From a virus (taxonomy: Duplodnaviria > Caudoviricetes), in IMG/VR virus record IMGVR_UViG_3300017705_000783, positions 8,565 through 72,564 of that record: a DNA stretch of 64,000 nt. One strand, 5' to 3'. The translations under genes and the position numbers were made by a program. Shown here piece after piece: positions 5,849 to 26,346 of the stretch (positions within the stretch are counted from its first letter, which is position 1; each line of letters opens with the position of its first letter). The notes beneath the pieces are model-generated. The model was not told the DNA's origin and made no database searches. It worked only from the letters and a program-made list of their open reading frames with translations.

Positions 5849-6265
5849 TTATTCTTTCCTTTCTAAAATTAGCTCGAATAATTCTTTGTTTAAAGCAAGA
5901 GCTGACATAAGCCCTCTACTAACGCCCAATGTTAAAAACTCATTGCTTGCGTTAGGTATATACCCTTCGGGACAGTTATCTCCTAACTCTCCTTTCTCGT
6001 GTCCACCAAACCCACATACTTCCAGAAGAACATGTGTTATTTCGTGAAGCACCGTCTCTATCGCTGTCTCTGTGTTTGCAGTTGATTGAAGAAAAATAGT
6101 ACAATCATCAAAATCAGTAACCCCCCAGCAAGCACAACCAGTATCTGCCAGATGATCTTTAACAGTTATCTTAAATTTACGGTACCCTGCGTTAAAGTAG
6201 AGGCCATCTATCTTTTTTAATAAATTACATTTCTTCTTCTGCGTCATCCTCTTCGCCCTCTTCAA
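5849..6265 (-). CDS. Putative zinc metallopeptidase (HExxH)
   Basis: GVTDFDDCTIFL followed by ETVLHEITHVLL and a later Glu (SNEFL). Confidence 0.65.
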   Translation of the reverse strand: MKRAKRMTQKKKCNLLKKIDGLYFNAGYRKFKITVKDHLADTGCACWGVTDFDDCTIFLQSTANTETAIETVLHEITHVLLEVCGFGGHEKGELGDNCPEGYIPNASNEFLTLGVSRGLMSALALNKELFELILERKE

Positions 6266-7541
6266 TTCTAAGCGTACTATAGTTTACGTTGAGGGGAACC
6301 GTAAAAAATGCTCTTCCGTTTCTAACTTTCATAGCATATAAACGCATCATCCCCTCGTCATACTCTTCTCTATTCTGATTTAGGGACACAGCAAGATCTA
6401 CAGGTCTTATCTGACCGTAGGAGTCTCCTAACTCTGAGTCCGTAATTAATCTGACATTTCGTCCTTGGCGGTTTGTTTGGGTAGCTGTCCAGACCACGCA
6501 ACTATGCTCCTGAGCTAAACCTCGAAGATCTGTCACTGTTTGTTCCATTGCTTCGTACTTCGCCATATTTTTATCTGATATTTTAAGAAGACCAATATAA
6601 TCTACTATGATCACATCTGGGATGAAGTTTTCATGGTTTCTAAGTATATTTAAAAGAGATCTAATATTAGAAACATTGGTTACTCCCGCAGGAAGTTCCT
6701 TAATAACTAAGTCTCCATTAGAAAACTTCTCCTTAAAAAGATTTAACCTCTCCTTTACCTTCAAAAGAGAAGTAGGATTAGTTTTCATTATTCTTTGGGG
6801 GATAAGAGATGCTATTGAGTCCAGCCTTTGGGCTACTCTGTCTTCACTCATTTCAAGAGAAATATATAAAACCTTTCTATTTTCCATTAATGATTGAACA
6901 CATTGGTTAGCCAAGTAAAGACTTTTACCCACCCCAGGAGGTGCTACCACCATCCCAATCTCTTTTCTCTGGAGACCTCCTTCTATGGCTTGGTTAAGAG
7001 TTGGAATCATAGTCTTAAACAAGTCCTTTTGGTCCTCGGACAACTCGTACAGCCTCTTAAATCTATCTGCTATATCACTAAAATAGTTTTGTCCCACATC
7101 TACTTCTCTTGAGACAGTAAGAGCTTCCCTAATGTTGCTCTCAATGGCACCATAGTTCTCACTTTTAAGATGCAGAATACTATTCTTAATGGCTCCTTTA
7201 AGAGCTTCCTTTTTAGCAAAATCTTCAATAAGATCTAAAATATATTCCTTATTGTTTACGGACTCGGGATCTATAGCATTTATGTCCTCCAACTCCTCTG
7301 AGAAATCGGAGATTCTGCCTTCTTCGCCTATATCTTTCCTAATATCTTCTACGATAAAATCGTCTGTTGGAATGGATAAATACTCATCATAATGAGTGAC
7401 AACTGCCTCATAGATCCGAGCATGGGTGGGGTATTCAAAGTATTCCGACTTAACCAACGAGGAGATCTGGGTGAAGAAATCATGGTCACTTTTTAATAAA
7501 TAAATTATGCCTCTTTGTACATTAGAGGAGAATGGGTACAT
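6225..7541 (-). CDS. gp41: Replicative DnaB/gp41-like helicase
   Basis: Walker A APPGVGKS, ISLEM, VIIVDY, VWTATQTNR, DSYG motifs. Confidence 0.93.
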   Translation of the reverse strand: MYPFSSNVQRGIIYLLKSDHDFFTQISSLVKSEYFEYPTHARIYEAVVTHYDEYLSIPTDDFIVEDIRKDIGEEGRISDFSEELEDINAIDPESVNNKEYILDLIEDFAKKEALKGAIKNSILHLKSENYGAIESNIREALTVSREVDVGQNYFSDIADRFKRLYELSEDQKDLFKTMIPTLNQAIEGGLQRKEIGMVVAPPGVGKSLYLANQCVQSLMENRKVLYISLEMSEDRVAQRLDSIASLIPQRIMKTNPTSLLKVKERLNLFKEKFSNGDLVIKELPAGVTNVSNIRSLLNILRNHENFIPDVIIVDYIGLLKISDKNMAKYEAMEQTVTDLRGLAQEHSCVVWTATQTNRQGRNVRLITDSELGDSYGQIRPVDLAVSLNQNREEYDEGMMRLYAMKVRNGRAFFTVPLNVNYSTLRIEEGEEDDAEEEM

Positions 7542-10027: not shown

Positions 10028-11597
10028 GTCGGACCTTTCTCATTATTTTAGATTCTCCTTGGTCCTTGATTATAGTGATCCTTGGGGACGAATCCAGTAA
10101 GGTTTTCAAATGTTTGTTATGGGTGATAACAAATATATTTTTAGTTTTCTTTATTTCCTTCAATAAGGCATAAAGACCATAAATACCCCCTTCGTCGAGA
10201 TTTTCTGCTACCTCATCAAAGAAGATGATGTCTAACTGATTTTTATCGGTAAAAGAAAGAAGATCTCTTAGGGCTAAAAGTACGCATAAATTAATCTTTC
10301 TTTTTTCACCACCAGACAAAGATATATAATGAACTTCTTCTTCTGAAACCATAATTTTTTCGGACAATTCTTCATTAAATTCTAAATAATATCCCTGATT
10401 AGTTAGAAACGATAGATAATAATTTATCTTATCATTAAAGAAGGACAATACGTTGCGTATTATGTACTTTATGATGCCTTGTTCAGAAAAAGCCTTCTCC
10501 CAAAAGCGCATAATCTCGTATTTTTTATTAGATTCAATTTTCTTATTTTGTGCGTCTGCTATCTTCTCAGCTAAACTCTCTATTTGTGTTTCAAAAGAGC
10601 TTTTCTGGAGTACGAGTTCTTTCAATTCCAAAACAGAAGAGTAGTCCATAGACGTTATGGGGTAAGGCTCAGGAATTGAGACACTATCCCTTCTTTCCTT
10701 AAGAATCTTTATATTTTCTCTCTTATCTTCTATATTTTTCTTGTTCCTATCCCAATAGGTTTGGGGAAGTTTTTGTCCACATCCCTTACACTTGTTATTC
10801 TTTGCCTGAGCCAGCAGGTCATCCAAACTTCTAATTTCTCTATTAATATCAGAAAGTAAGGTTGCTTTTTTTCTGTTAGCATCAGATATAGCACGTTCGG
10901 TTCCTAAAATATCATCTAAAGATATATCCAAGTACTGTTCATACTCCGCTAAGTACTGATTATTCTCGCTATTAATTTTAGAAAGATCTCCCTCCAAAGA
11001 AGACTTAGATTTTTCAAACTCTTTAATTAGAGAGTCCTGTACCTTTAGATCTCCCCAATATACAGATTTATGATATTTTATCTTGTCCCTGAGACTAAAA
11101 ATTTCTTCTAGATTAAGAAAATTTCTAAGTATGATCCTTTTATCATTGGAGTCTGCGTCCAGAAAATTAAGAGTGTTGGACTGTCCGAAGAACATGGAGG
11201 ATAACAAGATCTTATAATTAATATTTAGAAGATCATCAATGTAGGCTTGGGTCGAAGAAGCGTGATCTTTTGTACAGTTCTCTCCGTCTATAAATAATTC
11301 AAGTTTAGTTGGTTTTTTTGACCTTCGTATCATTATCCCATTATCGAGAAAAATCTCAACCACACATCCCCGTTTGTTTTTATTATTTACAATGGCAACT
11401 TCAGTGCTTTTCCTAACCGTCTTCCCCGTTAATCCAAAGAAAACCGCCTCCAAAAGGGCAGACTTCCCAGACCCATTAGACCCAGAACTATCTTTATTAA
11501 CACCTTTTATCAATGTTAACCCACTGTAATCCTTAAAATTTAACTCGGTATCAACAAACGAGTAAAAATTCTTTATAGATATCTTTTCAATCCTCAC
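10005..11597 (-). CDS. gp46: gp46/SbcC-like recombination exonuclease ATPase subunit
   Basis: Walker A NGSGKS, CKGC zinc hook, LSGGE signature, FFDE, ITHN; GTG start. Confidence 0.93.
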   Translation of the reverse strand: MRIEKISIKNFYSFVDTELNFKDYSGLTLIKGVNKDSSGSNGSGKSALLEAVFFGLTGKTVRKSTEVAIVNNKNKRGCVVEIFLDNGIMIRRSKKPTKLELFIDGENCTKDHASSTQAYIDDLLNINYKILLSSMFFGQSNTLNFLDADSNDKRIILRNFLNLEEIFSLRDKIKYHKSVYWGDLKVQDSLIKEFEKSKSSLEGDLSKINSENNQYLAEYEQYLDISLDDILGTERAISDANRKKATLLSDINREIRSLDDLLAQAKNNKCKGCGQKLPQTYWDRNKKNIEDKRENIKILKERRDSVSIPEPYPITSMDYSSVLELKELVLQKSSFETQIESLAEKIADAQNKKIESNKKYEIMRFWEKAFSEQGIIKYIIRNVLSFFNDKINYYLSFLTNQGYYLEFNEELSEKIMVSEEEVHYISLSGGEKRKINLCVLLALRDLLSFTDKNQLDIIFFDEVAENLDEGGIYGLYALLKEIKKTKNIFVITHNKHLKTLLDSSPRITIIKDQGESKIMRKVRHGDCKAQ

Positions 11598-12618
11598 TTT
11601 TCAAAACCCCCAAACCCCACATAATATCCTCTTTATCGAGGGATGAATTATGCTTATCCACGTAATTTTCGATTATTTTATCATTTATGGAAAAAAGCTC
11701 TTTTGTTGGCTCATATTCACTCTGGGACTTGGTGTCATGCTCCTCCATAGGAACGAATTTAAAATCCGTATAAAAGGTTTGGAGCTGTTCCACAAGGTTA
11801 CTGTCTATCAGGTCATCCTTACCCAAAGAAACCCTCAGAAGCGTTGAAAAGTTTTTATCGTTTATTAAATCCTTATAGATTTCAAAGCTTTCTTCCAGTT
11901 CTTTATATTTTACTACAAGGTGTCTAGGGCCAGAACGAACTTCCTTAAAAACAAAGATGTCTTCATCCTCATTCTTAATCCCATAAAAACAGATTCTTCC
12001 CTCCTCCCCAAAATTGGTAGAATAAGGGGTTCCTACAACAGTTATCTCATTGTCTCCATTCCAATTGCTGTAGTGCTTGTGGATATGACCCAAGTACGTC
12101 CTATTATTAAACTTATTTAAACCGATACTAAAATCCTTATCCCCCTGAGAGTTCAAACAGCCAGCAAACCCAAAATGACCAAATATGGAATACCCCTTAG
12201 GGGCAGACTCTAAAGCCTCAACAATCTTATCTTGGTTTTCGTAGTGGGGAATATAAAGTCTCTTGCTCTTATGGCATATATGGGTGTGCTTTATTATCTT
12301 GCAATAAGGTCCATCAAATACAGACAGGATTGTGGAACCATTGTCTGATTTGTTGCTGGCGCAGTGGTTGCCTCTAACTATCACTACTTCTATCTTCTTC
12401 TTAGTTGTATAATCTAAAAGCTCCTTGAGCTTAAGCACGGGATCTGGGGCTGGTTTTCTCCGATCCAATACATCTCCAAGAAAAATTATCTCATTAGGGC
12501 ATTCTTTATTAATTATTTTTAAGATAGAAGCAATTTGGATATCCATAAGATCTGTTTTCTTATCATGTATATGGAGATCCCCAATTAACAAAGTTCTTCT
12601 ACTCATAAGGTACCCCAT
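11587..12618 (-). CDS. gp47: gp47/SbcD-like metallophosphoesterase nuclease subunit
   Basis: GDLH, GDVLD, GNH, GH, GHIH motifs. Confidence 0.92.
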   Translation of the reverse strand: MGYLMSRRTLLIGDLHIHDKKTDLMDIQIASILKIINKECPNEIIFLGDVLDRRKPAPDPVLKLKELLDYTTKKKIEVVIVRGNHCASNKSDNGSTILSVFDGPYCKIIKHTHICHKSKRLYIPHYENQDKIVEALESAPKGYSIFGHFGFAGCLNSQGDKDFSIGLNKFNNRTYLGHIHKHYSNWNGDNEITVVGTPYSTNFGEEGRICFYGIKNEDEDIFVFKEVRSGPRHLVVKYKELEESFEIYKDLINDKNFSTLLRVSLGKDDLIDSNLVEQLQTFYTDFKFVPMEEHDTKSQSEYEPTKELFSINDKIIENYVDKHNSSLDKEDIMWGLGVLKSED

Positions 12619-13675
12619 TTCCGAAGGAAGAACCTACCTCTATGTCCACGGTTAGTGGAACATCCAAATTAATGCCTAAGGATGCTTTCATATAGTTACA
12701 ATTAACCATTTCATCTTCTATTATAGAACACACCTCAGGGGTCTCCGCTTTTGGACAAATGAACTCCAAGCTATCGTGAACAGTTGCTTGGAAAATAGCC
12801 TTAAGACCTCTATTTTTTATAGTGTCAACTATGCCCAAAACGGCGCACACCAAAACATCAGAGGCTGCGCTCTGTACGGTAAAATTTAAGCCCTGTCTAT
12901 TAGCCCTGTTTCTTATCTTAGGAACGCTGCTCTGTGTGTCGGGGAGATTTCTTCTTCTTCCAAAAATAGTAGTTATATAACCGTCTTCTTCTATGGCTGC
13001 GGTTGTCTGTCTCATGTACTTAAATACGCCAGGAAATACAGTAGCATATTGAGAAATTATATCCTCCGATTTCTTAAGGGGGATATTCATCGTCTCAGAT
13101 AAATTAAAGGCTCCTCCACCGTACACAATGAGGAAAGAAACGGTCTTAGCTATCTGTCTTTCTTCTGTGGTGATCTTTTCCTCTGGTTTTCCGAACACGA
13201 GACTGGCCGTATGAGTATGGAGATCCTTCCCCTCTATAAAAGCACTCTTCATACCTTGCTCGTTAGCTATGTGTGCCAGTATCCTAAGTTCCATAGCGTT
13301 ATAATCAGAGGTAATAAAGTCCCAGCCAGCGGGAGCTACAAATATGTCCCTTATATTATGCTCTTTGTCTCGGGGAAGAGTGTGAAAGGAAATCCCCATA
13401 CTATTTCCCTTATTCCCAGAATACCCAGTACAGGAGAGCCTCCCTGTTGCTGTTCCATCCAAATTAAAGGACACATAGACTTTATTCTGATCATTATAAG
13501 TGATAGCCTTAGTGGTACCCATAATGTAAGTCTTATAAAGCTTTTCTAACTTCCTAAGCTTAAGTAAAGTCTCTATGAAGTCTCGGGCTTGAATAAGTTC
13601 CTCAGTTGTTTTACTTTTAACAACAGAGTCGCTTATTTTTTTACTCTCGTCCCTATGTTTCCATTTACTTCCCAC
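12599..13675 (-). CDS. polA: Family A DNA polymerase, fragment 3 (end of thumb, palm, fingers)
   Basis: LRKLEKLYKTY, TATGRLSC, motif A DYNAMELR, motif B RQIAKTVSFLIVYG, motif C VHDS; GTG start with AAGGAG RBS. Confidence 0.93.
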   Translation of the reverse strand: MGSKWKHRDESKKISDSVVKSKTTEELIQARDFIETLLKLRKLEKLYKTYIMGTTKAITYNDQNKVYVSFNLDGTATGRLSCTGYSGNKGNSMGISFHTLPRDKEHNIRDIFVAPAGWDFITSDYNAMELRILAHIANEQGMKSAFIEGKDLHTHTASLVFGKPEEKITTEERQIAKTVSFLIVYGGGAFNLSETMNIPLKKSEDIISQYATVFPGVFKYMRQTTAAIEEDGYITTIFGRRRNLPDTQSSVPKIRNRANRQGLNFTVQSAASDVLVCAVLGIVDTIKNRGLKAIFQATVHDSLEFICPKAETPEVCSIIEDEMVNCNYMKASLGINLDVPLTVDIEVGSSFGNGVPYE

Positions 13676-14144
13676 GAGAGCTAATCTCCTTTTTGATCTG
13701 ATTCAGCAGGATGTCTAAAGTGGGTTTGCTGACGGAGGGTAAGCCCTTGTCTGTTTTGTCAGGAGGATATAAAGCAAAGCCCTCTTCCTTGGTATAAAAA
13801 ACTTCTCTTAGGTCCTTGGTGCTAGAGAGATTCTCCTTCACGTTAAGTTGAGGAAAATCATACATGCTGTCGTGTATGTCAATGACAGAATTATTTAAAC
13901 TTCTAGCTACTTCTTTAAGCCTCTCTCTTGAAACTATTAAACCCTCGTACTCTGGCTCCATGAAGACCGTATTGGCAGGAGCTAGTACGTTCTCATAAAA
14001 GGGAAGGACTCCCATATCGTCTAACATAGTATAAAGTACGAAGAACACTTTAAGAGTGTAATGAGAATCCATTGCATTCCCACGCAAGCAATCAGGGAGA
14101 GGTATATTTTCCCAATCAAAGTTTTTATTTTTTACAGTTAGGAT
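13665..14144 (-). CDS. polA: Family A DNA polymerase, fragment 2 (Exo III motif plus start of thumb); frame open to ATC 14144
   Basis: ILTVKNKNFDWENIPLPDCLRGNAMDSHYT (Exo III-like), ME-PE-GLIV, NLSSTKDLREVFY, TDKGLPSVSKPTL; GAGGAGG 7 nt upstream of ATC. The ORF track starts it at TTG 14087. Confidence 0.8.
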   Translation of the reverse strand: MLTVKNKNFDWENIPLPDCLRGNAMDSHYTLKVFFVLYTMLDDMGVLPFYENVLAPANTVFMEPEYEGLIVSRERLKEVARSLNNSVIDIHDSMYDFPQLNVKENLSSTKDLREVFYTKEEGFALYPPDKTDKGLPSVSKPTLDILLNQIKKEISSRGK

Positions 14145-15142
14145 ACTACATCCTCCTCAAGTTCCTCTGGGAAGTACATGTTCACCAAGTCGGACAAAGA
14201 TTTCGGAGCATTCTCATTTATGAGATGTTGCATTACTTTAGTATCCCACACATTAACAGCACTTACTCCGTATCGCCACAAAAACTTCAAATCAAACTTA
14301 GCATTTTGAAATACTTTCATGTTATTTTTATTAGAAAGGATCCTTTCTATGGCATCCCACGGAGATAGCTCGGGAGAATTTTTATGATCTATGGGTATAG
14401 CATAGGTCCCAGACTCATGAGAAAATGCGATGGTCTGGATCTTGTCTCTTTTAAAATCTAAACCCGTTGTTTCTATATCACATGACACGGGGGTATCAGT
14501 GGTGAACAATGGTTTTAGAAGATCAAGCTTAGTGTCTGAGTCTATTATCTCATAACTAAAATCACTTTTAGCTTTCTTTTCTATAACTCTAGATATGGAG
14601 TTTCTTATATCCAGTTCAAATAGGTATCTGTGGCGAGGTTCTATGATTACCGAATAGGGGTGGAACAGGGGAACCACAGTACACTCAAAATCATCATGAA
14701 CAAAAGGAAATAGGGTTCCTCTCTTTGAGGCAATACCACTTTTCTTTATAAGCATCTTCATAGCAAGGTTGCCGCAAACAAAGACCAACTTCGGTCGTAA
14801 CTTTACCACTGTCTTATACAGATGCTCCCTACATAAATTCATATTGGCGGGAGGCATGTCTGCCTCTTTCACCTTGGGACACTTGACAGATGCAGAAAAG
14901 GAAGTAACTTTTTTGTACTCTGCGGGTAGAATTTCATGTATTAGCTTATACTCTTTGTGATTGAAAGGGTAGGGTTCTCCATACATGTAAGTAAAGGAAT
15001 CGGCAAGGAATAAAATATCATATTCCCTTCCCACCTTTTCATGATCTAAATTACAGTGGAAGGGTTTTGATTGTTTAAGAATAGAACATCCGTCACAACC
15101 CTCAGGGGCTTCTTCATCAAATAAATTTTGTAATTCAATCAT
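14138..15142 (-). CDS. polA: Family A DNA polymerase, fragment 1 (UDG family-4-like domain fused to 3'-5' exonuclease Exo I/II)
   Basis: CDGC...VKCP...LCR...CGNLA...HP (Fe-S UDG fold); DIETTGLD (Exo I), FQNAKFD (Exo II), WDTKVM. Confidence 0.88.
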   Translation of the reverse strand: MIELQNLFDEEAPEGCDGCSILKQSKPFHCNLDHEKVGREYDILFLADSFTYMYGEPYPFNHKEYKLIHEILPAEYKKVTSFSASVKCPKVKEADMPPANMNLCREHLYKTVVKLRPKLVFVCGNLAMKMLIKKSGIASKRGTLFPFVHDDFECTVVPLFHPYSVIIEPRHRYLFELDIRNSISRVIEKKAKSDFSYEIIDSDTKLDLLKPLFTTDTPVSCDIETTGLDFKRDKIQTIAFSHESGTYAIPIDHKNSPELSPWDAIERILSNKNNMKVFQNAKFDLKFLWRYGVSAVNVWDTKVMQHLINENAPKSLSDLVNMYFPEELEEDVVS

Positions 15143-19909: not shown

Positions 19910-22057
19910 TTAATTTCCTATCTGCGCTGATTGATTAGTTACGTTTATTTCAAACACTACAACCTCTGCTGTCTTTGTGGGTTTCAAGAGAACTTTACAC
20001 CACAACTCATTTCTATCTACCCTTACCGCAGTATTTGTTGTTTCGTCACAAATTACCTTAAATTCTGTGATACCACGTTCTCTCTTTATTGAATCAAGAA
20101 TAGGTGCTACCACAGTCTCAATCCTATCCCATGTAAATCTATCATTAGGCTCGAAAGCGAACTGTCTTGTAGAATTAACAACAGTATCTCGAATCTCAAT
20201 AAGCAAACGTCTAATATTAATTCTGTTGGTTGCCTTATTTGATCTCAAGGCTGTCCTCTGTCCGAAGATAACAATTCCATCTTGAGCAAATTTAGTGATT
20301 GGATTAATTATATTTCCACCACTGTAGAGAGAGTCTCTATCACCTTGATTTAATGCAACTTCAACATCTACAGGCTTGGTTAAACGACCTCTAGCCAAGC
20401 CAGCAGGAGCAAACCATGGCTGGGCTACTCTATCTGTAGCTACCATTTGTCTTGCAGCGTAAATCTCGGGGGCGTACCACCTATCTTTACCATCAAAGAC
20501 ACTAAAGGTTTTAACCCAAGGCCAATGAACTGCGGCATAAGAACTATTAATGGCTGCTGCTCTATCAGTAGATTTGCCATTAGTCCAATCAATAGCATCA
20601 GAAGGTTTTCCAATAGCATATGGAGGAGATACAAGAGCTAAGAATTTTTGTGTGGTCTCAGCTTTAGTAATAAGAGCATTTTGTGCTCCATCAAGCTCAG
20701 AGAAATCAGGGATCAAGGCTATTCTAACGGGAACACCTTCATCGTCCAGAGCCTCTATGCCGCTCCTACCACCATCACTCTCAACCTGTCCTATTAAAGA
20801 AGTTTCTTTAGCAGCGGATTCAGTGGGAATACCACTATCACCACCAGCCAAGGAATAAGTACCTTGAACAGGCTTGATAAATCTTGGGTCGCACATCGAA
20901 CTCACCATACCAGAACCGTCTGTTACAGCCATAGTGTTCACAGCCATCGCCCCAATACCAGTGGTTAAATCATAGAAGTTATCTATAGAAGTCACACTTG
21001 TTACCGCAGCATTTCCTTGGGCACTAGTATAGTATCCTACTATCTCTCTTGAGGTAGCATCTACATTAGTTTTTCCTATTGCAGTTTCCAAGAATACCGA
21101 GGAAGTAGCTCCTCCCTTAAAGGTCTCAGCCGCAGTACCATCAGTGTTAACCTGAATAACTACATTTGAATTACCATTGACATTCACCTCAACTGAAGTT
21201 CCTGACGTTGCCCCAGCGGGAGTGGTTCCTTCGTTGTATCCTGCTCCAGTATAGCGGGATCTGGTCCAGTAATACAGATCAGAGAATGTGCCCCCAGAGA
21301 CCGTCACACTAGTTGCAGCCAATGCGTCTGTACTCCAATCTGAATGGCGTATTCCACTCAAATCCAAAGGTTGGAGTCCTTTCACCCCAGTCCAATTAGT
21401 ATCATCATCAGTCGCTTCCATAGTAATGGTCATGGTAGTACCAGAACCAGCTATGGGGTTAACGATAAAAGCAGAGGCATCTGCATCAGTACCAAAGGCT
21501 CCTATCCTATCTGCATCCAAAGAGCCCCCTAAAACTTTTCTTAAGGCATCAATGGACCTGCCTCCATTAGCATAAGTCTGGGATATTGTTCCCGATGGGA
21601 CGCTATACACTTTAGAATTTAATACTTGAGTTCTGGTGTTATCATAGGTAGTAACTGTAAACCTATAATTCCAACTTCCTCCATTATCGAGACCTATCCA
21701 ACCACCAGAGGGTGAAGCAGAAACACCTACAGCAGGACAAACTCCCATAGGTATAGCAGCAGAAGCTTCTGCTGCGGACGTTGCAGCACACCTAACAAAA
21801 TACGTGCTATTGGTTGCTTCTAATATTTCAAGAGCACCTTCTAACGCTTGTCCTGCTAGGTCCTCACTTGGGTTACCAAATGTAGAAACTAACTGCTCTT
21901 GGCTAGTAATTAGGGTAGCCTTATCCCCACTCTTTCCCGCCACTGGTCCTTTTGAAGCAAACCCAATTATCCCCACCACAGAAGAGTTGGACCCTGCGGG
22001 ATAGTCTGATATGTCAACCTCGGTGAAATAGGCACCTGGACTTAGATACTTAGCCAT
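19910..22057 (-). CDS. gp18: Tail sheath protein gp18-like
   Basis: YLSPGAYFTEVD, PWFAPAG..RG, IVIFGQRT, RINIRRL, FEPND, LKPTKTAE. Confidence 0.95.
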   Translation of the reverse strand: MAKYLSPGAYFTEVDISDYPAGSNSSVVGIIGFASKGPVAGKSGDKATLITSQEQLVSTFGNPSEDLAGQALEGALEILEATNSTYFVRCAATSAAEASAAIPMGVCPAVGVSASPSGGWIGLDNGGSWNYRFTVTTYDNTRTQVLNSKVYSVPSGTISQTYANGGRSIDALRKVLGGSLDADRIGAFGTDADASAFIVNPIAGSGTTMTITMEATDDDTNWTGVKGLQPLDLSGIRHSDWSTDALAATSVTVSGGTFSDLYYWTRSRYTGAGYNEGTTPAGATSGTSVEVNVNGNSNVVIQVNTDGTAAETFKGGATSSVFLETAIGKTNVDATSREIVGYYTSAQGNAAVTSVTSIDNFYDLTTGIGAMAVNTMAVTDGSGMVSSMCDPRFIKPVQGTYSLAGGDSGIPTESAAKETSLIGQVESDGGRSGIEALDDEGVPVRIALIPDFSELDGAQNALITKAETTQKFLALVSPPYAIGKPSDAIDWTNGKSTDRAAAINSSYAAVHWPWVKTFSVFDGKDRWYAPEIYAARQMVATDRVAQPWFAPAGLARGRLTKPVDVEVALNQGDRDSLYSGGNIINPITKFAQDGIVIFGQRTALRSNKATNRINIRRLLIEIRDTVVNSTRQFAFEPNDRFTWDRIETVVAPILDSIKRERGITEFKVICDETTNTAVRVDRNELWCKVLLKPTKTAEVVVFEINVTNQSAQIGN

Positions 22058-22069
22058 TTAATGTTCTCC

Positions 22070-22309
22070 CTAATTAATACTTATCAATCTTCTTTTATGT
22101 AAATTAAGCAATCTTTCTGTTATAACAGAAGCAGGAACCTCCACAGACGCTCCTGGAGTTAATTTTATTGTTTGATTTCTACCCGTAGGCACAGGCCACG
22201 TTTGTAGACTTACATTTCTAACAGTTTTCATAGAAATTTTAGGGACAGAGGCTGGCACTTCCGTCACTGTCTTAACCTTCTTTTTCTTTATACTCTTTTT
22301 AGAAACCAT
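22070..22309 (-). CDS. Small hypothetical protein
   Basis: ORF between gp15-like and sheath, late-type element upstream. Confidence 0.55.
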   Translation of the reverse strand: MVSKKSIKKKKVKTVTEVPASVPKISMKTVRNVSLQTWPVPTGRNQTIKLTPGASVEVPASVITERLLNLHKRRLISIN

Positions 22310-22365
22310 AATTTATACCTGTGTCGTAACCTCTAAATATATTTAGGTAATAAATACAAACAATT

Positions 22366-23118
22366 TTAATTTATTTTTGTATAAGACTCAGTTTCTGATA
22401 TGTTTATTGAGCTAGTATCAATAGTTTCATCAAGTACCGAAGTCTTATTTTCCGTTATTACTTCTACCTCAGTGTTAAACTCTGTGATTTCTCCTGTAGA
22501 AGTTATTAAATACTTAGGATATGGAATATATCCCTCCACTGAGAGATCAAATCTTCGTCTAATGATTCTATCTTCTCTGTCGCCGACCACAGTAACAGAA
22601 TCGTTCTCTTCTCCTGTTATAAATGCCATTGTAGAATTAGTATATTTTGTAATCATAGTTAAATTAGGATTTAATAATAACCTAATTTGTTCTACAAGCT
22701 GATCCATATCTTCGTTATACTTAGTCCACATATTTACTTCATAAGATATTGTAATAGCTTTGGGGGCTAAACTTATAACTCTAAGAGCCCTTTTTCTTTT
22801 AGTATCCCAATAAGTTTCATTAACTAGTAAATCTTTTATTCTTCTACGCTCTGTATCTTCATCGCTTAGGGTCTGTGCTACCGTTACAAGGGGGAGAATT
22901 ATGTTATTTTCTTGAAACATTTTTGCAACTGCTCTCTCTGCGGTTGCATTCACACATGGAACATCTATAAGTTCATTTTGAGGATCTCGTATCTTAAAAC
23001 CAGAAAACGAAGCAAGCATAAATCTTAAATTTTCTTTATAGGCCGATGATATAAGGTGTTGAGGTTGTATTTTATCGCTCAATAATCCCCTTATCCAATC
23101 CCTAGTCTTCCACCTCAT
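22366..23118 (-). CDS. gp15: gp15-like tail sheath stabiliser/terminator
   Basis: IILPLVTV, PKAITISYEVNMWTKYNEDMDQLVEQI, FDLSVEGYIP; position after neck genes. Confidence 0.7.
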   Translation of the reverse strand: MRWKTRDWIRGLLSDKIQPQHLISSAYKENLRFMLASFSGFKIRDPQNELIDVPCVNATAERAVAKMFQENNIILPLVTVAQTLSDEDTERRRIKDLLVNETYWDTKRKRALRVISLAPKAITISYEVNMWTKYNEDMDQLVEQIRLLLNPNLTMITKYTNSTMAFITGEENDSVTVVGDREDRIIRRRFDLSVEGYIPYPKYLITSTGEITEFNTEVEVITENKTSVLDETIDTSSINISETESYTKIN

Positions 23119-23750
23119 TATCTATCTCCGTATGGATTATTCAGATCTTCTCTAGTAGAAAGAGGACTATTAGGAACCACTGTTTCGGCATTCATAGCAG
23201 AAATATTCTCTGTTCTCTTTGTGAGAGGTTCTTTAACAACATCAGAAAAATCTCTAAGAACTCGGGCAGCGCATACTAAGTGATAAACTCCATAAATTTC
23301 AAAACTCTCCTCCTGAACCTCTATAATCTCGTACTTTACATTTTGAAATTTAGGTTTTACTACATCGTGAGGTATTGGAGTACGACCCAAAACTGTTTCT
23401 ATACTACTCTTATTAAAAGTAAATAGCTGATCATTGCTTAATTCTATACCAAACTGGGTTAGGTTCTCTTCAATAGGAGATGGATTATAATGACCAAATA
23501 CTACTATTGGTTCTGAGTGTAGGGTTTTCATCCTCTCCTCCATGTAGATAGGATCTATAGTTCCATCACTCTGAAAATACTTATAATATAAAATTTTAGA
23601 TCCTGCTAACCGAATTTGCTCTTCATCAATGAGATTATGGAGACCTAGATCGGGATTTTGAGGATCAAACAGACTTAGTTCTGTTGAGTCCTCTATAGTA
23701 GGCAGCGGGGGCATTTTTACCCCAACTTTAAATCTATTATCCTTATTCAT
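23118..23750 (-). CDS. gp14: Neck protein gp14-like
   Basis: EEQIRLAG...YY, LTQFGI, P..HDVV, EIIEV..E.F. Confidence 0.7.
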   Translation of the reverse strand: MNKDNRFKVGVKMPPLPTIEDSTELSLFDPQNPDLGLHNLIDEEQIRLAGSKILYYKYFQSDGTIDPIYMEERMKTLHSEPIVVFGHYNPSPIEENLTQFGIELSNDQLFTFNKSSIETVLGRTPIPHDVVKPKFQNVKYEIIEVQEESFEIYGVYHLVCAARVLRDFSDVVKEPLTKRTENISAMNAETVVPNSPLSTREDLNNPYGDR

Positions 23751-24631
23751 TAGAATGCCGTGAACACTGGTGGCTCTTCGATCTCAGAAACCAATTCTTC
23801 TATCAGTAATTGTTTTTCTTCTTTACTTTGCATAAGTAAAGCTTCCCCATTTAACTGAGATCCACCTCCTGGAGAAGGGAGAATTGCATACTTCCCTCTA
23901 ATTTGCCCTAAAACACCTTTAACTGCTGCGAGAGTGTACCTCTGCAACCAATTCCTGTAAGCAGGATGTATTGTATTTGAGTTTATTGCTCTGTATTCTA
24001 TAATAACTGTTTGTGGAGTTGTGACAGGTGCGGGGGATAACAATAAATATCTTCCATCTACAACATTAAAGGAACCTTCTTGACCTAATATTTTTCTTGT
24101 CATTTCAAGGTTCTGTTGCAGAAGATAAAAGTCTGCTACACCAAAATTTTGAAATAAGAAGTTATCCTGAAAATACTTTATAAAAAAGTCAAATTCTAGA
24201 GTACCTGCTTGAGACTGTATAGAAAGCAAAGTCTTTTTGTATACAACATAGGTTAAGTTATCCAACATGTATTGGGGGAGTTCATACATATTTGTCCCTG
24301 CGGAGGCATCAAAGGCAGCTATCTGTTTCGTCCATAGCGGAGCATGATAATTCAATCTTGTAATTGCTTCATCCATACATGTTCTTATTTGATAAGGAGT
24401 AACTTCTATTCTTACTACTGGGTGTCCTAATTGAGCTAGGGCATAATCAGCTAGAGTTTGTTCAAAATCCGTATACTCTTCTAAAGAACTCTCAGTACCT
24501 GTATTTAATTTATCTCTATCAATACTAGTAAGTATTACGCCCTTGTCTATATGAGCCCCAATTGGAGATGCTAATGTATTACCAAATGTAGCAAGACGGG
24601 GTACTTTCGCAGGTGGTGTTGCTTGTGCCAT
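23750..24631 (-). CDS. gp13: Neck protein gp13-like
   Basis: YALAQLGHPVVRIEVT..QI...DEA, WLQRY..A..K..LGQIRGKY, GG..LNGEAL. Confidence 0.85.
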   Translation of the reverse strand: MAQATPPAKVPRLATFGNTLASPIGAHIDKGVILTSIDRDKLNTGTESSLEEYTDFEQTLADYALAQLGHPVVRIEVTPYQIRTCMDEAITRLNYHAPLWTKQIAAFDASAGTNMYELPQYMLDNLTYVVYKKTLLSIQSQAGTLEFDFFIKYFQDNFLFQNFGVADFYLLQQNLEMTRKILGQEGSFNVVDGRYLLLSPAPVTTPQTVIIEYRAINSNTIHPAYRNWLQRYTLAAVKGVLGQIRGKYAILPSPGGGSQLNGEALLMQSKEEKQLLIEELVSEIEEPPVFTAF

Positions 24632-24654
24632 AATTAACCTCTAAACTATATACC

Positions 24655-24695
24655 TAAAAAATAAGAGGGACCCGAGAAAATTCTCAGATCCCTCT
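24655..24695 (-). terminator. Rho-independent terminator after major capsid gene
   Basis: AGAGGGATCTGAGA-ATTT-TCTCGGGTCCCTCT stem with U-G pairs followed by TATTTTTT. Confidence 0.85.
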
Positions 24696-24717
24696 AAAAG
24701 TTTAGGCTTGATTACTA

Positions 24718-26346
24718 TTAATCAGCTTGGTTCAAGGCTGACGAGCCACCACCCTTACCGAACGGATTAAACAGGTAATTAGCACCTGCTCCAACCACTC
24801 GAATGATTCTGTAGAATCTGTAGTAAGGACCCACTGCTGCTTTACCGTAGCGAGTCAGAATGCCCTTTCTGGGCTGGAAGTCCGAAGGATCAGTGATTGT
24901 TGGCATGGACTGGAGTGGGATATATGGAGCATATACATAACCACTATCCATAGCGTTATCACCCTTATAGCCGATCATAATCTCATCTTCTGGGTACATC
25001 GGATCGACCCACAGATCGTAACGACCCATGAACTTACCTCTGTAAGAAATTTGATTACGTCCGATATTAGTTGGACCATCACCAGGAGCAATACCACCTT
25101 CAAGCTTCGCTGCCGATTCCAGCATGGAAGCAATCAGAGGTGATGTAATAAGCCAGTTACCAGGACCACGGAATGTAGTTCTGTAGATATCCTGCGAAGC
25201 GAAGTTAATTATCGAAAGCAGATTAGCATATACGTGGCCGACATGCTGTGGTGCCGCACCAAACTGACTGTCAGTCCTTGAGAGATCAACGAGCCACACG
25301 TTAGAGTTAGTACCTACATCAGGACCATCCCCTACACCTGCGTACGCATTAGCAAAATCATACAAGAATGCGGAAGGAGTAAACTCTGTAGTATTTACCG
25401 AGCCAGCGTTCGCTGTGGGATGATTCGGCCCCTGCGCCTGGAAATTATTAGCGTTTCCACCACCAGTAAGGGATCCGACATTCCAACCAGTGTGACCATT
25501 AGGATCATACGCAATCATACGAAGATCTTCAATAATCTCACGGTCAATCTCAAGAGCAATTTCCTTTGAGAGAAGGCTAGTAAGCTCTCCCTCAAGATCA
25601 AGGTTGTGATACGCACGAAGGTCTTGAGCAGCCTCAAGAGTCCAAAGTGCCCGCATCTTACGAGTACGAGCAACAACTGGCTGCTGATCAATGTGCATGT
25701 TAAGCTCTGGAATACCAGTAGAGGTAAGAGCTTCACCTGCACTAACGGAATATCCGAGGATAGTCGCTGCAACAGGGAAGGAGGCGATTTTACCACCCAT
25801 CGTAGAGCTTGGACTCGCTGGAGAATTCCATGAATCAGCACAAGTACCCATGTTGTTCTCTAAACCAAGCGAAGACAACGCCGCATTAGCAGCACTAAAA
25901 GTATCAAAAGCCTCTCTAGCTTCAGGCGATCCTGCATCAACTCCAGTGTCAATAGCACTGGATGTAAGGTTAGCATACGTTAGGTTGTAACGACTGAACA
26001 CTGTTTGGTTTCGACCTCCTGTTGGAGTGCCATAGTGTCGGTCATGACCCAGATAGAAAATCTGGGACACTGGACCTTGCATAGGCTGAACGCCAACAAG
26101 GTTATTAGCAAGAAGCTGCGGATAGACGCGACGGACGAGTGGAAATGCGAACTTCTGGAATGTACCGAGCTTACCCACTGTAGTAGGTGAATCAGTACCA
26201 ACAACTTCGTCCACACGCTCACTCACGATGGCTTTAGCCTGGTTTTCCAGAAGAACTGCACATACCTTACGCTTGTAGTCATCGTCTATACCCTCAAGTA
26301 CAGGACTCCAACGGTCCTCCATACTTGGATCATAATTAGAAATCAT
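24718..26346 (-). CDS. gp23: Major capsid protein gp23-like
   Basis: W.PVLEG, LLENQ, VGVQPMQGP, ARTRKMRA.WT.E.AQDL.A.H.LD.E.EL, EIDREII, YAPYIPL, LTRYG. Confidence 0.97.
   Translation of the reverse strand: MISNYDPSMEDRWSPVLEGIDDDYKRKVCAVLLENQAKAIVSERVDEVVGTDSPTTVGKLGTFQKFAFPLVRRVYPQLLANNLVGVQPMQGPVSQIFYLGHDRHYGTPTGGRNQTVFSRYNLTYANLTSSAIDTGVDAGSPEAREAFDTFSAANAALSSLGLENNMGTCADSWNSPASPSSTMGGKIASFPVAATILGYSVSAGEALTSTGIPELNMHIDQQPVVARTRKMRALWTLEAAQDLRAYHNLDLEGELTSLLSKEIALEIDREIIEDLRMIAYDPNGHTGWNVGSLTGGGNANNFQAQGPNHPTANAGSVNTTEFTPSAFLYDFANAYAGVGDGPDVGTNSNVWLVDLSRTDSQFGAAPQHVGHVYANLLSIINFASQDIYRTTFRGPGNWLITSPLIASMLESAAKLEGGIAPGDGPTNIGRNQISYRGKFMGRYDLWVDPMYPEDEIMIGYKGDNAMDSGYVYAPYIPLQSMPTITDPSDFQPRKGILTRYGKAAVGPYYRFYRIIRVVGAGANYLFNPFGKGGGSSALNQAD

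What the first reader, a model, noticed from the sequence alone, without database searches (positions are those of the whole stretch)
12599..15142. Family A DNA polymerase split into three intein-free genes, with the proofreading site divided between two polypeptides
Seen: three consecutive minus-strand ORFs in different frames together give a complete SPO1-type polymerase. ORF1 has UDG-like + Exo I (DIE) + Exo II (NAKFD). ORF2 has an Exo III-like segment (FDWENIPLPDC..GNAMDSHYT) plus the thumb start to T.KG.PS. ORF3 has the rest of the thumb (LL.LR.LEKLYKTY) plus motifs A, B and C. Both downstream pieces have their own RBS (GAGGAGG; AAGGAG before GTG 13675). Neither junction shows intein ends (no Cys/Ser start, no His-Asn end) or room for an intron. 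ORF2 and ORF3 carry extra, apparently helical residues at the break (NQIKKEISSRGK; MGSKWKHRDESKKISDSVVKSKTTEEL), which argues for an evolved split rather than a fresh error. Known: split replicases are established for family B gp43A/B of some T4-like phages and for intein-joined enzymes. Inference: a heterotrimeric PolA whose exonuclease active site is built in trans, possibly a way to regulate or shield the replicase. I do not know of a described case.
Basis: partly seen in the sequence, partly recalled or inferred. Interest (0 to 1): 0.82.

Follow-up and report, generated by a model that had tools for sequence, protein, structure and literature searches.

The report
Three-gene phage DNA polymerase
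This uncultured marine T4-like phage, like many relatives, encodes its family A DNA polymerase as three separate genes, one cut through the proofreading site and one through the thumb, so the enzyme is probably assembled from three proteins, which extends the known two-gene split polymerases.

Summary

**The three genes (minus strand):**
- ORF1, 15142-14138: family-4 UDG-like domain plus Exo I and Exo II.
- ORF2, 14144-13665: Exo III Asp plus the first half of the thumb.
- ORF3, 13675-12599: thumb helix I plus motifs A, B and C.

**The split is real and evolved:**
- All 74 related loci with enough flank carry the same three pieces as separate ORFs.
- The ORF2-to-ORF3 frame offset differs between relatives.
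- Junctions are stop/start overlaps (TAATG, GTGnnTAA, ATGA).
- 33 of 61 unique loci have other genes inserted at junction 1.
- dN/dS is 0.04-0.07 for all three pieces.
- This excludes sequencing error, pseudogenes, inteins, introns and a conserved frameshift.

**Order of events:** a tree and syntenic two-gene relatives indicate fused, then cut 1, then a thumb-tip insertion, then cut 2.

**New details:**
- The Exo III tyrosine is glycine in all 104 cut-1 representatives and tyrosine in all 18 fused relatives.
- In this lineage ORF2 starts at ATC.

**Limits:** Two-gene exo|pol splits are published (S-SBP1-like phages; LUZ24 annotation). This scan noted other split PolAs on other DNA. This is a new variant of a known kind.

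The parts
14138..15142 (-). [quoted passage not shown]
   Evidence: Pfam UDG and DNA_pol_A_exo1. The family profile hits family-4 UDG 4zbx (2.8e-14) and Klenow chain positions 6-131.
14471..14479 (-). Exo I motif, D222-I-E224 (DIETTG)
   Evidence: Invariant in 56 of 56 unique ORF1 homologues.
14291..14305 (-). Exo II motif, N280-A-K-F-D284
   Evidence: D284 invariant in 56 of 56 and N280 in 55 of 56.
14152..14158 (-). Shine-Dalgarno GAGGAGG for ORF2, 7 nt upstream of the ATC
   Evidence: Sequence.
13665..14144 (-). ORF2 (159 aa from ATC 14144): last helices of the exonuclease domain (Exo III Asp), the linker and the first half of the thumb. It overlaps the ORF1 stop by 7 nt.
   Evidence: Relatives have ATG or GTG at this codon. 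The profile aligns to Klenow chain 159-294 (E 9.5e-19). In the first 19 codons there are 4 synonymous and 0 nonsynonymous differences from L003.
14067..14081 (-). Exo III-equivalent motif G22-N-A-M-D26. The Asp is kept and the canonical Tyr is replaced by Gly.
13686..13691 (-). Shine-Dalgarno AAGGAG for ORF3, 10 nt upstream of the GTG
   Evidence: Sequence.
12599..13675 (-). ORF3 (358 aa, GTG start, 11-nt overlap with ORF2): conserved N-terminal extension (KWKHRDE..K), thumb helix I, palm and fingers
13283..13306 (-). Polymerase motif A (D124-Y-N-A-M-E-L-R131)
   Evidence: Invariant D124, Y125, E129 and R131 in alignment A2.
13118..13159 (-). Polymerase motif B (R173..K177..F181..Y185-G186). 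F181 corresponds to Klenow F762.
12770..12784 (-). Polymerase motif C (T298-V-H-D301-S302)

Best explanation
The phage's replicative family A DNA polymerase (a UDG-PolA type) is encoded by three separately translated, translationally coupled cistrons. Their products most likely assemble non-covalently into one Klenow-like enzyme.

- Subunit A (ORF1) supplies the UDG-like domain and the Exo I and Exo II carboxylates.
- Subunit B (ORF2) supplies the Exo III aspartate helix, the exo-pol linker and the thumb up to its tip. It therefore packs against both other subunits and acts as a staple.
- Subunit C (ORF3) supplies thumb helix I, the palm and the fingers.

Cut 1 lies in a surface loop of the exonuclease domain, near Klenow residues 470-481, so the proofreading site is composite. 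Cut 2 lies in the loop of a helix-loop-helix insertion at the thumb tip.

The inferred history is: fused UDG-PolA, then fission at cut 1 (together with the Exo III Tyr-to-Gly change), then growth of a thumb-tip insertion, then fission inside it.

Shown here: the gene structure, its conservation, the selection on it, the mapping of the cuts and the order of events. Inferred: physical assembly, activity of the composite exonuclease, and AUC-initiated or re-initiated translation of ORF2 in this lineage.
For: Recurrence of the split:
- More than 1000 ORF3-sized homologues (353-376 aa, 55-97% identity, about 100% coverage) exist. None of 628 aa or more exceeds 38% identity.
- ORF2 has 93 cluster representatives at E<1e-10, almost all 157-181 aa and aligned end to end.
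- All 74 loci with enough upstream DNA carry ORF1, ORF2 and ORF3 as separate ORFs. The 10 loci without all three have under 1.1 kb upstream of ORF3.

Junction geometry in 61 unique loci:
- ORF2 start codon: ATG 56, GTG 1, ATC 2.
- Junction 1: 1-nt TAATG overlap in 21, 7-nt overlap in 5, inserted DNA in 33.
- ORF3 start codon: GTG 40, ATG 19.
- Junction 2: overlaps of 8, 4, 23 or 11 nt, so the frame offset is +1 in some loci and -1 in others.
- Inserted genes are often on the opposite strand. They include a 2OG-Fe(II) oxygenase and a GT2 glycosyltransferase.

Selection and independent assembly:
- dN/dS against L003 is 0.072, 0.056 and 0.042 for the three pieces.
- L003 comes from a different metagenome and has the same junctions.

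Conserved catalytic residues:
- Exo I and Exo II residues are invariant or nearly so in 56 ORF1 sequences.
- The Exo III Asp is invariant in ORF2.
- Motifs A, B and C are invariant in ORF3.

Structure:
- The ORF2 profile aligns to Klenow 482-617.
- The model of P0339, a natural ORF2+ORF3 fusion (pLDDT 89.6), superposes on Klenow 470-928 (Z 38.5, rmsd 2.8 A over 445 residues). Junction 2 falls in its 169-182 loop.
- ORF2 modelled alone has high local confidence but low global confidence (pLDDT 90.9, pTM 0.51). That fits a piece that is not globular on its own.

History:
- In the tree, the cut-1 clade has support 100/96 and the three-gene clade 98/95. P0339 is its sister, and fused forms lie outside.
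- Two-gene relatives are syntenic with the window.
Against: - No direct evidence of complex formation was obtained.
- The Exo III tyrosine is Gly in every cut-1 form (104 of 104), so proofreading may be altered or weakened.
- In this window and in L003, ORF2 lacks a canonical start codon, so its translation depends on ATC or on re-initiation.
- All relatives are uncultured metagenomic contigs, so there is no protein-level evidence.
- The tree is midpoint-rooted, has 41 rows and has long branches among the fused forms.
Confidence: 0.85

Rival explanations
1. The three subunits assemble, but the split exonuclease is catalytically dead or much weakened. It would be kept only as a structural scaffold, because PolAs need the exonuclease fold for stability. 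The enzyme would then be a low-fidelity or non-proofreading replicase.
For: - The Exo III Tyr (Klenow Y497) is Gly in 104 of 104 cut-1 representatives and Tyr in 18 of 18 fused relatives.
- Cutting an active site should be easier to tolerate if the site is no longer needed.
- PMC10201439 notes that PolAs structurally require the exonuclease domain even when it is inactive.
Against: - All four metal-binding carboxylates (D222, E224, D284 and ORF2 D26) and N280 are invariant or nearly so across sequences 40-50% diverged. A dead site would not be expected to keep them.
- From my own knowledge, loss of the Klenow Tyr hydroxyl lowers exonuclease activity but does not abolish it.
Confidence: 0.1
2. 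Programmed ribosomal frameshifting, or another recoding event, reads ORF1, ORF2 and ORF3 into one full-length polypeptide.
For: - ORF1 and ORF3 are in the same frame and ORF2 is at -1.
- In this window ORF2 has no canonical start codon.
- An A-rich run (C AAA AAG GAG) lies in the ORF2/ORF3 overlap.
Against: - The 16-nt ORF1/ORF2 overlap contains no slippery heptamer.
- The ORF2-to-ORF3 offset is +1 in most relatives and -1 in others.
- 33 of 61 unique loci have 0.2-2.4 kb, often with opposite-strand genes, between ORF1 and ORF2.
- 57 of 59 ORF2 genes and all ORF3 genes have ATG or GTG starts in stop/start overlaps typical of translational coupling.
Confidence: 0.03
3. The split is a sequencing or assembly error, or a decaying pseudogene in a defective viral contig.
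For: The record is a metagenome-assembled, linear contig estimated at 56% complete. There are A5 and A6 runs near junction 1.
Against: - An independent assembly (L003) has identical junction architecture. Its differences from the window are synonymous in the coding frames.
- Hundreds of divergent relatives share both breakpoints.
- dN/dS is 0.04-0.07.
- Neither homopolymer run lies inside the 16-nt window in which a frame correction would have to occur.
Confidence: 0.01
4. The pieces are rejoined after transcription or translation, by a group I or II intron or by split inteins.
For: SPO1-type and LUZ24-type phage polymerase genes do contain introns (my own knowledge). Distant fused relatives P0358 and P0376 carry insertions of about 325-395 aa in the polymerase domain that could be inteins.
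Against: - The ORFs overlap in the window, so there is no room for an intron.
- Rfam finds no intron in the window or in nine loci with inserts.
- At junction 1 the termini align to contiguous Klenow sequence.
- At junction 2 only about 34 extra residues exist. These form one continuous helix-loop-helix in the natural fusion P0339, which is far too short for split inteins.
- Pfam finds no intein domains.
Confidence: 0.01

Closest known systems
Split exo|pol PolA of S-SBP1-like T7-like cyanophages (Czernecki et al. 2023, NAR, PMC10201439)
   Same: - A family A phage replicase divided by gene fission into adjacent, overlapping genes.
- No intein and no programmed frameshift.
- The association of the parts is inferred from structure prediction.
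   Different: - That case has two genes cut at the exo/pol domain boundary, so each active site stays on one chain. It belongs to the T7-like cluster (Tyr at motif B position 3), has no UDG domain and arose recently.
- Here there are three genes. The cuts lie inside the exonuclease domain (between Exo II and Exo III) and inside the thumb.
- This enzyme is a UDG-PolA with Phe at the Klenow 762 position, and the split is old and widespread.
LUZ24-like Pseudomonas phages (Bruynoghevirus), NC_010325: gp25 'DNA polymerase exonuclease subunit', gp34 'DNA polymerase part II', gp36 'DNA polymerase'
   Same: PolA is annotated in several pieces, with other genes between them, in a cultured phage.
   Different: - gp25 aligns to T7 gp5 residues 2-186 and contains Exo I, II and III, including the Tyr (YCLQD), so that cut is at the domain boundary.
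- gp34 and gp36 are separated near motif B by an endonuclease VII gene. From my own knowledge this is a group I intron that is spliced out. I did not test that here.
Single-chain UDG-PolAs (SPO1, SP-15/YerA41, N4-like cluster #17; PMC10201439, PMC13697223)
   Same: [quoted passage not shown] Distant fused relatives of 790-835 aa with the same domain order exist.
   Different: - Those are one polypeptide with a YxxxD Exo III motif.
- Here there are three polypeptides and a GxxxD motif.
- In this UDG-like domain, motif A (GEAPG) is replaced by LSDS, while the motif B His-Pro and five Cys are invariant.
Intein-free split family B polymerase gp43A/gp43B of some T4-related phages, and the nrdA-a/mobE/nrdA-b 'genes in pieces' of Aeromonas phage Aeh1 (my own knowledge; also cited in earlier scan notes)
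   Same: An essential phage replication enzyme is encoded as separately translated pieces that reassemble. The break point tolerates inserted genes.
   Different: Those are a different polymerase family, or a different enzyme, and have two pieces. A homing endonuclease gene sits in the break, whereas none was recognised among the ten inserted ORFs tested here.

Membership tests
Family A DNA polymerase (Pfam PF00476) | Motifs A (DYSxxELR), B (RxxxKxxxFxxxYG) and C (HDE/S), and a Klenow-like palm, fingers and thumb | tested here: met
   - Pfam E 8.9e-84.
- Invariant D124, Y125, E129, R131, R173, K177, F181, Y185, G186, H300 (nearly invariant) and D301.
- The profile matches Bst Pol I at E 9e-66.
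- The fold is spread over ORF2 and ORF3.
DEDDy 3'-5' proofreading exonuclease of PolA (PF01612) | Exo I DxE and Exo II Nx2-3(F/Y)D | tested here: met
   D222/E224 and N280..D284 in ORF1 are invariant or nearly so in 56 homologues.
DEDDy 3'-5' proofreading exonuclease of PolA (PF01612) | Exo III YxxxD on the same polypeptide | tested here: not met
   The Asp is present (ORF2 D26, invariant) but lies on a different polypeptide. The Tyr is Gly in 104 of 104 cut-1 representatives.
UDG-PolA fusions (SPO1-, SP-15- and N4-like) | [quoted passage not shown] | tested here: met
   Pfam UDG 27.1 bits against a cut-off of 24.3. The profile matches family-4 UDG 4zbx at E 2.8e-14.
UDG-PolA fusions (SPO1-, SP-15- and N4-like) | UDG, exonuclease and polymerase in one polypeptide | tested here: not met
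   Three ORFs in the window and in all 74 testable relatives.
UDG-PolA fusions (SPO1-, SP-15- and N4-like) | Catalytically competent UDG motifs (GEAPG motif A, HPS motif B) | tested here: inconclusive
   The motif B His-Pro is invariant (H161, P162). Motif A is replaced by L-S-D-S in the alignment to 4zbx. Activity cannot be judged from sequence.
Exo|pol two-gene split PolA (S-SBP1-like) | A single cut at the exonuclease/polymerase domain boundary | tested here: not met
   There are two cuts. One lies near Klenow 470-481, inside the exonuclease domain. The other lies at the thumb tip near Klenow 617-625.
Intein-mediated (trans-)splicing | Intein blocks and a nucleophile at +1, with room for N- and C-intein halves | tested here: not met
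   No intein domains in Pfam. The termini align to contiguous Klenow sequence at junction 1. Only about 34 extra residues exist at junction 2, and they are continuous in P0339.
Programmed ribosomal frameshift | Slippery site in the overlap and a frame relation conserved among relatives | tested here: not met
   No heptamer in the 16-nt junction 1 overlap. The junction 2 offset varies between +1 and -1, and genes are inserted at junction 1.
Self-splicing intron-interrupted polymerase gene | Group I or II intron RNA between exons | tested here: not met
   The ORFs overlap. Rfam gives no match at gathering threshold in the window or in 9 insert-bearing loci.
Homing-endonuclease 'genes in pieces' | HNH, GIY-YIG or LAGLIDADG gene in the break | tested here: inconclusive
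   None in the window. Ten inserted ORFs from relatives gave no endonuclease family in Pfam or PHROGs. Most have no family at all.

The most novel reading that the evidence does not exclude
The small middle subunit (ORF2) could be a limiting assembly factor that completes the proofreading site and tethers the exonuclease to the polymerase. Its supply would then set how much polymerase is proofreading-competent. In this lineage that supply would be throttled by an AUC start.

Separately, the new termini and the conserved basic KW(K/Q)HRDEGKK segment at the thumb tip could form a docking site for a processivity or replisome partner. That would be analogous to the thioredoxin-binding loop of T7 gp5.
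Probability: 0.1. Interest if true: 0.75.

Novelty: new variant of a known kind. Interest (0 to 1): 0.58.

Why it matters
- **Tolerance of the fold to cutting.** A Klenow-type polymerase appears to tolerate cuts inside two domains, one running through the proofreading active site, and to have done so stably across a large, globally distributed clade of marine myoviruses. The published natural PolA split is a two-gene cut at the exo/pol domain boundary.
- **Engineering.** The two breakpoints have been tested by evolution and could guide split-polymerase or complementation designs.
- **A testable catalytic change.** The Exo III Tyr-to-Gly change is linked to the fission and can be tested biochemically.
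- **Annotation.** Gene callers and PolA marker surveys will read these phages as having a truncated, exonuclease-less polymerase plus an unknown 160-aa protein. In the ATC-start lineage, ORF2 was called too short (135 aa in L003).

Tried and rejected
- **Nearest phage records.** DNA and protein searches of the phage collection found no close cultured relative. The best ORF3 match was 35% identical, and ORF2 gave one weak hit.
- **First locus scan.** A single-protein scan of viral contigs found nothing. The alignment-based scan worked.
- **Partial duplication at junction 2.** The ORF2 C-terminal profile and the ORF3 N-terminal profile both align to the same Klenow/Bst helix. That suggested junction 2 arose by a partial tandem duplication. 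A direct profile-profile comparison showed no similarity (probability 0.2), so I dropped the idea.
- **Homing endonucleases.** Ten inserted ORFs from relatives gave no HNH or GIY-YIG family in Pfam or PHROGs.
- **Introns.** Rfam found none in the window or in nine insert-bearing loci.
- **ORF2 fold search.** A Foldseek search of the isolated ORF2 model returned only PolA large fragments, at non-significant E values (0.12 or higher). This agrees with the sequence mapping but is not independent proof.
- **Literature.** Searches for a three-gene PolA split found nothing relevant.


Full report
**1. Observation**

The window is part of a 72.5-kb linear IMG/VR viral contig that CheckV rates at about 56% complete. 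On the minus strand there are three consecutive ORFs:
- ORF1, 15142..14138, 334 aa.
- ORF2, with an open frame over 14156..13665.
- ORF3, from GTG 13675 to 12599, 358 aa.

Pfam assigns them as follows:
- ORF1: UDG plus DNA_pol_A_exo1, profile positions 1-128 of 173.
- ORF2: a weak match to the first 70 positions of DNA_pol_A.
- ORF3: DNA_pol_A positions 52-380 (E 8.9e-84).

ORF2 is in the -1 frame relative to ORF1, and ORF3 is +1 relative to ORF2. ORF1 and ORF3 therefore share a frame. The ORF1/ORF2 frames overlap by only 16 nt, and that stretch has no slippery sequence.

**2. The split is real and conserved**

*Protein-level recurrence*
- A search with ORF3 returned 1075 proteins at E<=1e-20. 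The best 120 are all 353-376 aa, cover about 100% of ORF3 and are 55-97% identical. They come from JGI, ENA, Logan, Tara and NCBI metagenomes, on contigs up to 130 kb.
- Among proteins of 628 aa or more, the best hits are ordinary bacterial Pol I at 35-38% identity.
- A filter-free phmmer search with ORF2 found 93 cluster representatives at E<1e-10. Almost all are 157-181 aa and align from residue 2 to about 158.

*Gene neighbourhoods*
- A 76%-identical relative has genes of 337, 159 and 359 aa.
- A 58%-identical relative (L002) has 301, 165 and 360 aa.
- A 97%-identical relative from another metagenome (L003) has 334, 135 (called short) and 358 aa.

*Loci from viral contigs*
- An alignment-based scan returned 80 loci.
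- In every locus with enough upstream DNA (74), all three pieces are present as separate ORFs.
- The 10 remaining loci have under 1.1 kb upstream of ORF3.

**3. Junction anatomy rules out the trivial explanations**

Counts are for 61 non-identical loci.

*Junction 1*
- ORF2 starts with ATG in 56 loci, GTG in 1 and ATC in 2.
- ORF1 and ORF2 share a 1-nt TAATG overlap in 21 loci and a 7-nt overlap in 5.
- 33 loci have 0.2-2.4 kb of inserted DNA between ORF1 and ORF2.

*Junction 2*
- ORF3 starts with GTG in 40 loci and ATG in 19.
- It overlaps the ORF2 stop by 8 nt (GTGnnTAA, +1 frame), 4 nt (ATGA, -1 frame), 23 nt or 11 nt.
- Two loci instead have a gap: one of 132 nt and one with an inserted gene (L033).

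*Inserted DNA*
- It mostly carries opposite-strand ORFs of unknown family.
- Identified inserts include a 2OG-Fe(II) oxygenase, a GT2 glycosyltransferase and a DUF6445/phrog_1644 protein.
- No homing endonuclease family was recognised.

*What this excludes*
- A frame relation that varies, together with opposite-strand genes between the pieces, excludes a conserved programmed frameshift.
- Overlapping ORFs, and the absence of any Rfam match in the window and in nine insert-bearing loci, exclude introns.
- At junction 1 the termini align to contiguous Klenow sequence.
- At junction 2 only about 34 extra residues exist, which excludes split inteins.

*Selection*
- dN/dS between the window and L003 is 0.072, 0.056 and 0.042 for ORF1, ORF2 and ORF3. 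None of the pieces is decaying.

**4. Where the cuts fall in the fold**

Family profiles were aligned to solved structures.
- ORF1 matches a family-4 UDG (4zbx, E 2.8e-14) and the exonuclease domains of apicoplast PREX polymerase and Klenow, chain positions 6-131.
- ORF2 matches Klenow chain 159-294, which is E. coli Pol I 482-617 (E 9.5e-19). Its invariant G-N-A-x-D..T-L aligns with Y497-A-A-E-D501..T-L.
- ORF3 positions 23-345 match Bst chain 264-574 and Klenow chain 292-595.

*Cut 1*
- It lies in the exonuclease-domain loop after the conserved Y-F of ORF1, near Klenow residues 470-481.
- That is between Exo II and Exo III.

*Cut 2*
- It lies after the PS....TL..LL segment at the thumb tip and before helix I (LL.LRK..KL..TY).
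- Compared with fused relatives, there is an insertion of about 35-40 residues here.

*Structure models*
- P0339 is a natural 563-aa protein equivalent to ORF2 plus ORF3. Its model has pLDDT 89.6 and pTM 0.87.
- It superposes on Klenow residues 470-928 (Z 38.5, rmsd 2.8 A over 445 residues).
- The insertion appears as helix 149-168, loop 169-182 and helix 183-197. Cut 2 maps to that loop.
- ORF2 modelled alone is five helices with pLDDT 90.9 but pTM 0.51. Its only structural matches are PolA large fragments, at non-significant E values.
- That fits a piece that is not globular on its own and that packs partly on the exonuclease domain and partly on the polymerase domain.

**5. Catalytic residues**

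- In 56 unique ORF1 homologues, Exo I (D222, E224) and the Exo II aspartate (D284) are invariant, and the Exo II asparagine N280 is conserved in 55 of 56.
- In ORF2 the Exo III Asp (D26) is invariant.
- Motifs A, B and C are invariant in ORF3. F181 sits at the Klenow F762 position.
- The Exo III tyrosine is glycine in all 104 representatives that begin at cut 1. It is tyrosine in all 18 fused relatives.
- The metal-binding carboxylates are therefore under selection on two different polypeptides. This supports a composite active site.
- The residue that normally orients the attacking water has changed together with the fission. Whether another residue takes over, or proofreading is weakened, cannot be decided here.

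**6. Order of events**

HMM-based architectures show three classes among relatives:
- Fully fused UDG-exo-pol proteins of 790-835 aa.
- Two-gene forms, in which a 515-563-aa protein starts exactly at ORF2 residue 1.
- Three-gene forms.

The two-gene forms sit in the same synteny as the window. The shared neighbours are a PDDEXK gene, small ORFs, an opposite-strand sigma-like gene, the polymerase pieces, Mre11-like and Rad50-like genes and ribonucleotide reductase.

A maximum-likelihood tree of the polymerase region was built (41 rows, midpoint root):
- All cut-1 forms form one clade (support 100/96).
- The three-gene forms are monophyletic inside it (98/95).
- P0339, which already has the full thumb insertion in one chain, is their sister (94/85).
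- Fused forms and bacterial Pol I lie outside.

The simplest history is fission at cut 1, then growth of the thumb insertion, then fission within it. The caveats are sparse sampling and long branches among the fused forms.

**7. The ORF2 start in this window**

- Relatives have ATG or GTG at the codon 7 nt before the ORF1 stop (L004 GTG, L005 and L006 ATG). More distant relatives have TAATG.
- The window and L003 have ATC there (14144-14142), 7 nt after GAGGAGG.
- The first canonical start is TTG 14087, then ATG 14072. Either would remove the conserved LTV..FDW.N.PL segment, and the ATG would also cut into the GNAxD motif.
- Between the window and L003, the 19 codons after the ATC show 4 synonymous and 0 nonsynonymous changes. 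This segment is therefore still translated.
- The most likely mechanism is AUC initiation or termination-reinitiation coupled to ORF1. This is inferred.

**8. Lineage**

- PHROGs identify a T4-type major head protein, a tail sheath, a baseplate wedge protein and a DnaB-like helicase.
- The head protein is only about 29% identical to cyanophage gp23.
- This is an uncultured marine T4-like myovirus lineage that uses a family A rather than a family B polymerase.

**9. Comparison with what is known**

- Czernecki et al. 2023 (PMC10201439) reported a two-gene exo|pol split in S-SBP1-like T7-like phages as the first seen in PolAs. They excluded frameshifting in a similar way.
- Two-gene splits are also mentioned for uncultured cyanophages (10.1101/325100) and OM43 phages (PMC10580990).
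- LUZ24 is annotated with a separate exonuclease subunit and two further polymerase pieces. Its exonuclease subunit contains all three Exo motifs, including the Tyr. Its second break is near motif B, with an endonuclease VII gene in between.
- Earlier notes of this scan record other split PolAs on other DNA.
- I found no description of a three-gene PolA with both cuts inside domains, nor of the Exo III Tyr-to-Gly correlation.

**10. Verdict**

- The mechanism, three subunits assembling non-covalently with ORF2 as a staple and a composite exonuclease site, is well supported by genomics. It is untested biochemically.
- It is a new variant of a known kind (split phage replicases) and is of moderate to high interest.

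Noticed in passing
window 14142-14144 (minus strand); also L003 at about 1531-1533: The ORF2 start codon is ATC where 57 of 59 relatives have ATG or GTG. A strong GAGGAGG lies 7 nt upstream and the ORF1 stop lies 4 nt downstream. The following 19 codons show only synonymous differences from L003. Gene callers truncate this gene, calling 135 aa in L003.
   Followed up: yes
window 14588-15097 (ORF1 residues about 16-185): In the UDG-like domain, C16, C19, C88, C104 and C123 and the motif B H161-P162 are invariant, which looks like a family-4 Fe-S cluster. Motif A (GEAPG) is replaced by L-S-D-S. The domain may have altered or lost uracil excision.
   Followed up: partly
Junction 1 in related loci, e.g. 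L016:2484-3016, L023:741-3018, L030:2032-3007, L033:1790-2420, L063:592-2985, L071:1848-3018: The ORF1/ORF2 junction is a hotspot for inserted accessory genes (33 of 61 unique loci), mostly on the opposite strand and of unknown family. One is a 2OG-Fe(II) oxygenase and one a GT2 glycosyltransferase. L033 also has a DUF6445/phrog_1644 gene between ORF2 and ORF3.
   Followed up: partly
Proteins P0358 (1208 aa) and P0376 (1311 aa), distant fused relatives: The polymerase-domain match is interrupted by about 325-395 extra residues near ORF3 profile position 175. These could be inteins.
   Followed up: no
window 19910-26346, 46378-48000 and 6225-7541: The virion module is T4-like (gp23-type head protein about 29% identical to cyanophage gp23, plus sheath and baseplate wedge). 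The replication module uses PolA and a DnaB-like helicase, so this looks like a polymerase-swapped, uncultured T4-like marine lineage.
   Followed up: partly
window 12599-12618, compared with the P0008 contig and L085: Some relatives carry a thyX (Thy1) gene between ORF3 and the Mre11-like gene. The window does not: ORF3 overlaps the Mre11-like gene (11587-12618) directly.
   Followed up: no
window 14146-14151 (minus strand): An ATG-TAG 'start-stop' pair in the third frame sits between the GAGGAGG and the ATC of ORF2. L003 has ACG at this position, so it is not conserved.
   Followed up: no
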